DNA from: the human T2T-CHM13v2.0 reference genome, Homo sapiens
DNA: 64,000 bases
Reading direction: 5' to 3' (one strand)
NCBI RefSeq assembly: GCF_009914755.1
Contig: NC_060929.1
This document shows, piece after piece, positions 9,566 through 10,393 of this stretch. The notes under the pieces were generated by a model. That model saw nothing but the letters and a program-made list of their open reading frames with translations. It did not search any database and had not been told where the DNA came from. The position numbers and the translations under genes were made by a program. Within the stretch, counting starts at the first letter, position 1; each line of letters opens with the position of its first letter.

Positions 9566-10393
9566 TTCTTCTTTTCTTTTTTTTTTTTTTTGTGAGTCTC
9601 ATTCTGTCTCCCAGGCCCCAGTGCAGTGGCACAGTCACATTCACTGCAGCCTCAACTTCTCAACTCAAGAGATCCTGCCACCTCAGTGCCCCCACTCCAC
9701 CCACCATGAGCTGAGATTGCAGGAATGATATGGTTTGGCTGTGTACCCACCCAAATCTCATCTTGAATTGTAGTTTCCATAATCCCCATGTGTCATGGGA
9801 GAGGCCAGGCAGAGATAATTGAATCATGGGGAAGGTTTCCCCATCGGTTCTTGTGATAGTGAGTGAGTTCTCATGCGATCTGACGCTTTTATAAGGGGCT
9901 TTTCCCGCTTTTGCTCAGCACTTCTCCTTGCTGCTATCATGTGAAGGAGGACATGTTCGCTTCCCCTTCTGCCATGATTGTAAGTTTCCTGAGGCCTCCC
10001 CAGCCCTGTGGAACCATGAATTATTAAACCTCTTTCCTTTATAAATTATTAAACCTCTTTCCTTTATAAATTTTCAGTTCGAGACCAGCTTGGCCAACAT
10101 AATGAAACATATGAACATAATGAAACCTGAGCTGGGTGTGGTAGTGCATACCTGTAATTCCAACTACTCAGTAGTCTTTATTAGGAGTCTCAGGTATGTC
10201 TTTATTAGCAGCATGAGAAAGGACTAATACAAGGCATGAACCACCACACCTGTCTAATTCTAAAAATTTTATTTGTAGAGACAGTGTCTCACTATGGTGC
10301 ACAGGCTGGTCTCAAACTCCTGGGCTCAAGTGATCCTCCCACCTCAGCCTCCCAAAGTGCTGGGATTGCTGATGTGAGCCACCATACCTGTCC
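9566..10393 (-). mobile_element. Old Alu (AluJ-like) split by a THE1 LTR
   Basis: Right arm 9566-9725; remainder 10232-10393 resumes in register. Confidence 0.8.
9726..10231 (+). mobile_element. THE1 (THE1B-like) MaLR solo LTR carrying a templated insertion
   Basis: tgatatggtttggctgtg...ggactaataca termini; 5-bp TSD aggaa/aggca. Confidence 0.85.

What the first reader, a model, noticed from the sequence alone, without database searches (positions are those of the whole stretch)
10023..10185. Complex templated insertion: 78 nt of an Alu 2 kb downstream copied into a THE1 LTR, with three local duplications
Seen: where THE1 should read ...ataaattacccagtctc..., the sequence instead has (i) a tandem duplication of attaaacctctttcctttataaatt (10023-10047, 10048-10072); (ii) 10076-10171, identical to 12118-12195 apart from an 18-nt stutter (atatg plus a second aacataatgaaac); (iii) gtctttattag (10174-10184), a copy of 10198-10208. 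The copied piece includes the private linker-deletion junction (aatgaaacctgagctggg) of the Alu at 12043, which identifies that Alu as the donor. It has no poly(A) tail or TSD, so it is not ordinary retrotransposition. Inference: serial template switching during break repair (polymerase theta-mediated end joining or FoSTeS/MMBIR). The absence of substitutions between donor and copy suggests a recent, possibly lineage-specific or polymorphic event.
Basis: partly seen in the sequence, partly recalled or inferred. Interest (0 to 1): 0.8.

Follow-up and report, generated by a model that had tools for sequence, protein, structure and literature searches.

The report
Patchwork templated insertion from neighbouring Alu
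A 138-base patch inside an old repeat in a NIM1K intron was stitched together from copies of both flanks plus a piece of an Alu 2 kb away, a clear but ordinary scar of error-prone DNA break or replication repair.

Summary
Window 10048-10185 (138 nt) sits where 29 paralogous THE1-type LTR copies run straight from ...ATAAATT into an ACCCAG-type hexamer. It consists of an exact 25-nt left-flank duplicate, a TTC filler, 78 nt identical to Alu 12118-12195 with a 10-nt unit tripled, and an error-bearing recopy of the right flank.

The donor is certain. The 33-mer across its private linker deletion occurs only twice in the whole CHM13 genome, both in this window. No other site matches the 32-mer within 3 mismatches.

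There is no poly(A) and no target-site duplication, and about 4 nt of target are lost. All blocks are in direct orientation. Microhomology of 3-6 nt marks most junctions.

The best reading is one episode of serial, low-fidelity, microhomology-primed template switching, of the MMBIR/FoSTeS or polymerase-theta type. This is a known kind of event.

"Recent" is only bounded. There are 0 differences in 127 paired positions, which gives under about 12-24 Myr, or at most 0.17 of the LTR's age. Whether it is polymorphic or lineage-specific could not be tested here.

By description it also meets the criteria for "non-classical Alu insertions".

The parts
9726..10231 (+). Host element: THE1-type MaLR solo LTR (family name recalled, not given by a tool), flanked by a 5-nt target-site duplication AGGAA/AGGCA. 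It is interrupted by the patch.
   Evidence: 1172 first-look candidates genome-wide, and 29 fetched copies 89-94% identical over 118 nt; ends and TSD.
10019..10022 (+). AATT microhomology. It is identical to 10044-10047 and sets the 25-nt slip.
   Evidence: 29-nt exact repeat 10019/10044.
10023..10047 (+). Left-flank unit, copy 1 (which of the two copies is the original cannot be told).
10048..10072 (+). Left-flank unit, copy 2. Exact, 20% G+C.
10073..10075 (+). TTC filler with no identifiable template and no microhomology to the donor.
10076..10108 (+). Alu block 1, an exact copy of 12118-12150.
   Evidence: D7.
10109..10116 (+). Imperfect middle pass over the 10-nt unit ATAATGAAAC. It is 8 nt long, with two single-A losses.
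   Evidence: period 10, 3.3 copies, 17% indels; alignment.
10114..10171 (+). Alu block 2, an exact copy of 12138-12195. It carries the donor's private linker-deletion junction.
10167..10184 (+). Error-bearing recopy of LTR 10189-10208 (18 of 20 nt, two 1-nt losses). Its first 5 nt, CTCAG, overlap the end of the Alu block.
   Evidence: alignment; 11-nt exact core.
10185..10185 (+). G. Either a 1-nt filler or a C>G at the return junction (10174-10187 matches 10198-10211 at 13 of 14).
   Evidence: (D16).
10189..10211 (+). Right-flank template for the recopy and the return microhomology (CAG).
12043..12328 (+). Donor Alu, full length with an A-rich tail. It lacks about 23-24 nt of the A-rich linker compared with a neighbouring Alu.
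   Evidence: (I1/I6 arm offsets).
12118..12195 (+). The 78 nt of the donor used as template. The private junction lies at 12150/12151.
12028..12043 (+). 5' target-site duplication of the donor Alu (16 nt, exact). Its partner is 12329-12344.
12329..12344 (+). 3' target-site duplication of the donor Alu.

Best explanation
One mutational episode in the germ line or early embryo. A 3' DNA end arose inside the LTR between ...ATAAATT and ACCCAG, either from a double-strand break or from a nascent strand released at a stalled fork. A low-fidelity, poorly processive polymerase then extended it while it changed template repeatedly.

Read on the top strand, the path is:
1. Slip back 25 nt at AATT and recopy the left flank.
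2. Jump 2.07 kb downstream to the sense Alu at 12118. This junction has a 3-nt TTC filler and no microhomology.
3. Make two 10-nt back-slips at AAC.
4. At CTCAG(G), which the Alu (12191-12196) and the LTR (10189-10194) share, return to the LTR. Copy to 10208 with two 1-nt losses.
5. Slip back 24 nt at (C/G)AG and continue normally.

The net change is +138 nt and about -4 nt.

What is shown: the blocks, their templates, the orientation, the junction sequences and the identity of the donor. What is inferred: that it was a single event, the order of the steps, and the enzymes. The sequence does not separate polymerase-theta end joining, using the other resected end as template, from replicative MMBIR/FoSTeS. 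Block lengths of 25-58 nt and a template 2 kb away lean towards the replicative, MMBIR-like end. The patch has no indicated function.
For: - Exact blocks of 25, 33, 58 and 11 nt account for the patch. The remaining 7-12-nt matches are at chance level for 128 kb.
- The donor is uniquely identified genome-wide. It is a bona fide retrotransposed Alu with an exact 16-nt TSD, so the direction of copying is Alu to LTR.
- 29 of 29 paralogous LTR copies lack any Alu piece at this site.
- Microhomologies: AATT, AAC twice, CTCAG(G), and (C/G)AG at 13 of 14 (D16).
- The four single-base losses all lie in re-copied stretches, as expected from an error-prone polymerase.
- All blocks are equally pristine, with 0 differences in 127 paired positions. 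17.4 would be expected if the patch were as old as the LTR. The blocks also abut one another, which argues for one event.
Against: - The ancestral empty site is inferred from paralogous copies, not from an orthologous or alternative allele. None was available (searches gave 0 hits).
- One junction (10072/10076) has no microhomology and a 3-nt filler.
- For TMEJ in particular, primary synthesis tracts are 'rarely more than 10 bp', insertions are 3-30 bp, and microhomology search is confined to about 15 nt from the ends. Here tracts reach 58 nt and the template is 2 kb away.
- Published MMB-TI searches looked only within 100 bp, so the frequency of kb-distant templates is unknown.
- A single event cannot be proven. 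The private GTCA>ATT change at 10020-10022, at the edge of the duplicated unit, may be an older separate lesion or a further scar.
Confidence: 0.8

Rival explanations
1. Two or more independent mutations at different times. For example, a 25-nt tandem duplication by replication slippage, a separate insertion of the Alu fragment, and a separate right-flank duplication.
For: - AT-rich, locally palindromic sequence (TTTATAAA) is prone to slippage.
- One of 29 other LTR copies (L036) has its own 14-nt local duplication at the same spot.
- A private GTCA>ATT cluster lies directly beside the unit, and a similar cluster lies at 9843-9846. This LTR has therefore collected small complex changes before.
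Against: - All blocks abut within 1-5 nt of one another.
- All are undiverged, with 0 differences in 127 paired positions.
- The Alu block merges into the right-flank recopy through shared CTCAG. That is hard to obtain from separate events.
Confidence: 0.09
2. RNA-templated break repair. The patch was reverse-transcribed from local RNA, either the NIM1K pre-mRNA, which contains all three templates in sense, or a transcript of the donor Alu. This would make it a 'non-classical Alu insertion' or a class 2 templated-sequence insertion.
For: - All four blocks are in the sense orientation of NIM1K and lie in one intron (hub annotation).
- The event meets the descriptive NCAI criteria: truncated at both ends, no poly(A), no TSD, a small target deletion and extra non-Alu sequence (PMC5402677).
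- It also meets the class 2 TSIP criteria of microdeletion, microhomology and filler (PMC5110952).
Against: - A freely diffusing Alu RNA would land within 2 kb of its source only by a chance of about 1e-6 (4 kb in 3.1 Gb, my arithmetic). Alu RNA also cannot supply the two LTR flank copies.
- Only an unspliced intron RNA acting in cis fits, which is an added assumption.
- Flank duplications in direct orientation are the expected product of DNA synthesis on the other break end.
Confidence: 0.07
3. Artefact. Either an assembly error in T2T-CHM13 or a mutation private to the CHM13 cell line, and so not a germline allele.
For: Only one assembly could be examined. No reads were available.
Against: - The region is unique. 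The private left-flank reading and the junction 33-mer occur only here.
- The patch has a coherent microhomology structure with untemplated fillers. That is unlike a collapse or a chimeric join.
- The high accuracy of the assembly is recalled, not tested.
Confidence: 0.04

Closest known systems
Germline MMBIR-type templated insertions (MMB-TI; Osia et al. 2021, PMC8421209; passages read)
   Same: - Copy-not-cut insertion.
- Microhomology or microhomeology at junctions.
- Several templates in one event (up to five are reported).
- Return to the original template without a large rearrangement.
- Persistence as a neutral germline variant.
   Different: - The published search was limited to templates within 100 bp, and the classic pattern is inverted.
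- Here all blocks are direct and one template lies 2.07 kb away.
Polymerase-theta end-joining templated insertions (TINS; Carvajal-Garcia et al. 2020, PMC7165422; passages read)
   Same: - Direct-repeat copies of both flanks.
- Repeated abort-and-reanneal rounds.
- AT-rich flank copies (20% and 33% G+C).
- Short microhomologies.
   Different: - TINS are 3-30 bp with primary tracts rarely over 10 bp, taken from DNA next to the break.
- Here tracts are 25-58 nt and the main template is 2 kb away.
- Dependence on Pol theta cannot be tested.
Non-classical Alu insertions (NCAI, endonuclease-independent; as described in Kryatova et al. 2017, PMC5402677; passages and supplement file 3 read)
   Same: - An Alu fragment truncated at both ends.
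- No poly(A) and no TSD.
- A small target-site deletion.
- Extra non-Alu sequence alongside.
   Different: - NCAI are attributed to Alu transcripts used as repair patches.
- Here the source is the Alu 2 kb away, identified by a private deletion, and the extra sequence is copied from the two flanks. This points to local DNA templating.
- The two polymorphic NCAI in that paper are at 10p11.23 and 12q13.3, not at this locus.
Class 2 templated-sequence insertion polymorphisms (Onozawa and Aplan 2016, PMC5110952; passages read)
   Same: An insertion templated from elsewhere at a presumed break, with microdeletion, microhomology and filler nucleotides. No TSD and no poly(A).
   Different: - TSIP donors are distant and often on other chromosomes, and are thought to be RNA-derived.
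- Here the donor is local.
- Polymorphism at this locus is not shown.
Short-range template-switch mutations (Loytynoja 2022, PMC9435742, passages read; Walker et al. 2021, PMC7954356, listing only)
   Same: A replication-type template switch that produces a local mutation cluster.
   Different: Those events create short inverted copies within tens of bases. This event creates only direct copies, and over 2 kb.

Membership tests
Templated insertion by iterative microhomology-mediated template switching (MMBIR/FoSTeS-type) | The inserted sequence is identical to a template elsewhere, and that template stays intact | tested here: met
   four exact blocks. The donor Alu and both flank templates are still in place.
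Templated insertion by iterative microhomology-mediated template switching (MMBIR/FoSTeS-type) | Microhomology at the switch points | tested here: met
   AATT, AAC (twice), CTCAG(G) and (C/G)AG. One junction (10072/10076) has none and carries a 3-nt filler.
Templated insertion by iterative microhomology-mediated template switching (MMBIR/FoSTeS-type) | More than one template switch within a single event | tested here: inconclusive
   Five switch points plus two slips are present. That they happened in one event is inferred from adjacency and equal lack of divergence.
Templated insertion by iterative microhomology-mediated template switching (MMBIR/FoSTeS-type) | The state is derived: the ancestral allele lacks the insertion | not testable with these tools
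   Only paralogous LTR copies were available, and 29 of 29 lack it. No orthologous or second-haplotype sequence was found.
Polymerase-theta TMEJ templated insertion (TINS) | An insertion of 3-30 bp identical to DNA flanking the break | tested here: not met
   The two flank copies (25 nt and 18 nt) fit. The 78-nt block from 2 kb away and the 138-nt total do not.
Polymerase-theta TMEJ templated insertion (TINS) | Dependence on POLQ | not testable with these tools
   This needs genetics.
Classical Alu retrotransposition (TPRT) | Intact 3' end with a poly(A) tail | tested here: not met
   The fragment ends at donor 12195, well before the tail at about 12297-12328.
Classical Alu retrotransposition (TPRT) | Flanking target-site duplication | tested here: not met
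   The flank repeats are a 25-nt left-flank tandem copy and an 18-nt right-flank recopy, not one sequence on both sides. About 4 nt of target are lost.
Non-classical Alu insertion (NCAI) | 3' truncated with no poly(A), no TSD, a target-site deletion, and often extra non-Alu sequence | tested here: met
   set against the criteria quoted in PMC5402677.
Non-classical Alu insertion (NCAI) | No L1 ORF2p endonuclease cleavage site at the insertion site | not tested
   The criterion is quoted in PMC5402677. I did not compare the AT-rich target (TTTATAAATT/ACCC) with any list of reported ORF2p cleavage sites.
Non-classical Alu insertion (NCAI) | The patch derives from an Alu RNA transcript | not testable with these tools
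   The local private donor and the flank-derived blocks argue for DNA, or for cis intron RNA, rather than free Alu RNA.

The most novel reading that the evidence does not exclude
All four templated blocks lie in one NIM1K intron in the sense orientation. The patch could therefore be a germline record of break repair templated in cis by the nascent NIM1K pre-mRNA. More broadly, Alu-fragment insertions now filed as RNA-patch 'non-classical Alu insertions' may often be local copies of neighbouring Alus, recognisable only when the donor carries a private mark as this one does.
Probability: 0.08. Interest if true: 0.6.

Novelty: new member of a known kind. Interest (0 to 1): 0.3.

Why it matters
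This is an unusually legible example. A private deletion in the donor Alu makes the source unambiguous, and every junction can be read. The locus could serve three purposes.

- As a teaching or benchmark case for callers of complex templated insertions. Current tools look only within about 100 bp.
- As a phylogenetic or population marker, if it proves lineage-specific or polymorphic.
- As a caution that Alu fragments lacking TSD and poly(A) are not necessarily RNA-derived.

It has no indicated effect on NIM1K. It is deep in an intron and inside nested repeats. It does not open a new mechanism.

Tried and rejected
- **Chance or family similarity.** Rejected as the explanation of the match. Alu-to-Alu exact matches reach 86 nt in this window, and the first 34 nt of the donor block occur exactly in two other Alus. 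The junction-bearing 33-mer and 32-mer, however, are unique to this locus.
- **The 15-mer across the junction.** It has 17 genome hits. I inspected 6 of the 15 hits outside this window and none lies in an Alu. The other 9 were not inspected.
- **Reverse direction (fragment to Alu by gene conversion).** Rejected. The Alu is full length with a tail and an exact 16-nt TSD, and it lacks the stutter.
- **Second haplotype or primate copy as contamination in other collections.** A private 34-mer of the left flank gave 0 hits in genome contigs and 0 in viral contigs.
- **Rfam on 9000-13000.** 0 matches at gathering score.
- **Hairpin proximity idea.** I folded the hypothetical single-stranded bottom strand 10186-12400 with DNA parameters (no shuffle control). 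The donor Alu pairs end to end with the antisense Alu at about 10543-10873. 87% of the template stretch is paired, and the stem base lies about 360 nt from the break. This shows a large inverted-Alu hairpin is possible. It does not specifically place a free template at the break, so I do not use it as support.
- **The two published NCAI loci.** I wanted to test them for local donors. That would need sequence from a paper's supplement, which is not a source I may hand in, so I left it out.
- **PMC8082928.** It held nothing relevant.

Full report
**What is there.** I read 9700-10600 and 11950-12450 and checked every stated identity by script.
- 10023-10047 and 10048-10072 are the same 25 nt.
- 10076-10108 equals 12118-12150 (33 nt), and 10114-10171 equals 12138-12195 (58 nt). 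The two matches overlap by 13 donor bases and are separated in the copy by ATATG.
- 10174-10184 equals 10198-10208 (11 nt).
- A search for the longest exact match of every position of 10048-10185 against the rest of the window, on both strands, returns just these four blocks. Everything else is 7-12 nt, which is chance level for 128 kb.
- The unexplained fillers are TTC (10073-75), ATATG (10109-13), TA (10172-73) and G (10185).

**Host and pre-insertion state.** The host is a high-copy LTR. A 118-nt probe ending at 10047 gave 1172 first-look candidates in the window's own genome, of which 40 were scored. No tool named it.
- It spans 9726-10231 and has a 5-nt target duplication AGGAA/AGGCA.
- In 29 other copies fetched from the genome...ATAAATT is followed by ACCCAG in 18. 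One of those is offset by 2 nt, and one (L036) follows its own 14-nt local duplication. The other 11 carry one- or two-base variants of the hexamer. None of the 29 has Alu-like sequence there.
- The window resumes at (G)AGTCTCAGG. So 138 nt (10048-10185) were gained and ACCC was lost. Equally, ACC was lost with a C>G.

**Donor.** The Alu at 12043-12328 is full length with an A-rich tail and an exact 16-nt target-site duplication at 12028-12043 and 12329-12344.
- Compared with a neighbouring antisense Alu it lacks about 23-24 nt of the A-rich linker. This is seen as the arm offset between I1 and I6, as the bulge, and as the end of collinearity at 12153.
- The 33-mer across that junction occurs twice in the 3.1-Gb CHM13 genome, both times in this window. 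The reversed control gave 0.
- A 32-mer with up to 3 mismatches finds only the donor.
- A BLAST of the 78 nt finds the donor and the copy at 100%. Nothing else spanning the junction exceeds 81%, with 40 of 427 candidates scored.
- Two cautions apply. Exact Alu-to-Alu matches of 40-86 nt are ordinary in this window. The first 34 nt of the block occur exactly in two other Alus. The private junction in block 2 carries the argument, not length.
- Within 5 kb, the 58-nt block is the longest exact repeat in the window, out of 182 repeats of 18 nt or more.

**Finer anatomy.**
- The '18-nt stutter' is a tripling. TRF reports a 10-nt period with 3.3 copies at 10096-10126. Aligned to AAC followed by three ATAATGAAAC units, the sequence differs only by two missing A's in the middle unit.
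- The Alu block ends in CTCAG. The donor continues CTCAGG (12191-12196), and the LTR has CTCAGG at 10189-10194.
- 10167-10187 aligns to 10189-10211 with two 1-nt gaps and one mismatch. So 'TA + GTCTTTATTAG' is a sloppy recopy of the right flank, entered through 5-6 nt of microhomology and left through (C/G)AG (13 of 14, D16).
- The left duplication is set by AATT at 10019-22 and 10044-47.
- All four blocks are direct.
- All four single-base losses lie in re-copied stretches.

**Mechanism.** The simplest account is one episode of serial template switching by a 3' end that arose between ATAAATT and ACCCAG.
1. It slips back 25 nt.
2. It jumps 2.07 kb to the Alu.
3. It slips back 10 nt twice.
4. 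It returns to the LTR through CTCAG(G).
5. It slips back 24 nt and then continues.

Shown are the blocks, templates, orientation and junctions. Inferred are the single event, the order of steps and the enzymes.

From passages I read:
- Polymerase-theta joining produces direct-repeat insertions by synthesis on the other resected end, in repeated aborted rounds. These are typically 3-30 bp, with primary tracts rarely over 10 bp and microhomology search near the ends (PMC7165422).
- MMBIR-type germline templated insertions can draw on up to five templates, but they were searched only within 100 bp (PMC8421209).
- Iterative template switching at constitutional rearrangements gives templated insertions from 7 bp to kilobases (PMC5120786).

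Tracts of 25-58 nt and a 2-kb jump lean towards the replicative end of this spectrum. The flank copies look like TMEJ. I cannot separate the two. That BIR-type synthesis and Pol theta are prone to frameshifts is recalled, not checked.

**Age.** The paired blocks show 0 differences in 127 positions.
- With 0.5-1.0e-9 substitutions per site per year (recalled rates), the 95% upper bounds are 23.6 and 11.8 Myr. The P=0.5 points are 5.5 and 2.7 Myr.
- An internal clock agrees. The LTR has 22 private differences in 321 nt against at least 80% of 28 copies. That predicts 17.4 differences if the patch were as old as the LTR. It bounds the patch to at most 0.17 of the LTR's age.
- This supports 'much younger than its host'. 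It does not show a human-specific or polymorphic state.

**Surroundings.**
- The LTR lies inside an older antisense Alu (about 9566-9725 and 10232-10393; 14-nt TSD matching at 13 of 14). That Alu lies in turn inside an antisense LTR-like fragment.
- Between the patch and the donor lie two more antisense Alus. The donor is the only sense Alu in 9500-12500.
- A fold of the hypothetical single strand pairs the donor with the Alu at about 10543-10873 (no control). I do not count this as support.
- Rfam finds nothing in 9000-13000.

**Unexplained.** Directly 5' of the duplicated unit the window reads TGA-ATT-ATTAAACC, where 27 of 27 aligned copies have a GTCA-type tetramer. This created the AATT used for the slip.
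- It may be an older lesion. A comparable private cluster lies at 9843-9846.
- It may instead be a sixth scar of the same event.
- An empty allele would decide.

**Comparison and novelty.** This is a new, very clean instance of a known class: complex templated insertion by microhomology-mediated template switching.
- By description it also satisfies the published criteria for non-classical Alu insertions (PMC5402677). Those are attributed to Alu RNA patches.
- Here the private local donor and the flank-derived blocks argue for local templating. That hints that some such insertions are DNA copies of neighbours.
- That paper's two polymorphic NCAI lie at other loci.
- I found no paper on this locus. 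My searches were about mechanisms, not the locus, so I make no claim that it is unpublished. Structural-variant call sets in supplements that I did not open may list it.

Noticed in passing
window 9500-10450: Four-layer nesting. An antisense LTR-like fragment (inverted matches 9502-9526/9811-9835 and 9746-9767/10406-10427) holds an antisense Alu (about 9566-10393; TSD TGAGGATCAAATTT/TGGGGATCAAATTT). That Alu holds the sense THE1-type LTR (9726-10231; TSD AGGAA/AGGCA), which holds the templated patch.
   Followed up: partly
window 10020-10022: The window reads ATT where 27 of 27 aligned LTR copies have a GTCA-type tetramer. This lies exactly at the 5' edge of the duplicated unit and creates the AATT microhomology. 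It may be an older lesion or a further scar of the same event. A similar private cluster lies at 9843-9846.
   Followed up: partly
L036 (G000:C11, around 43272996-43273114): Another copy of the same LTR family carries its own 14-nt local duplication at the very same ATAAATT site. This AT-rich spot, which contains the 8-nt palindrome TTTATAAA, may be prone to slippage.
   Followed up: no
window 10057-10078: The left junction creates a pyrimidine-rich run ending in TTTTCAG, in the sense orientation of the NIM1K intron. It looks like a splice acceptor. There is no evidence that it is used.
   Followed up: no
window 11710-11775: A 33-nt tandem repeat, two copies, 91% identical, in unique sequence between the Alus.
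   Followed up: no
window 40838 and 60610: An 86-nt exact match between two Alus 20 kb apart, the longest exact repeat in the window. It is probably two young copies close to their family sequence.
   Followed up: no
window 10543-10873 and 12043-12328: An inverted Alu pair, about 80-90% complementary, with about 1.2 kb between the arms. It is predicted to form a nearly end-to-end hairpin if single-stranded. Three antisense Alus face the one sense donor within 2.8 kb.
   Followed up: partly
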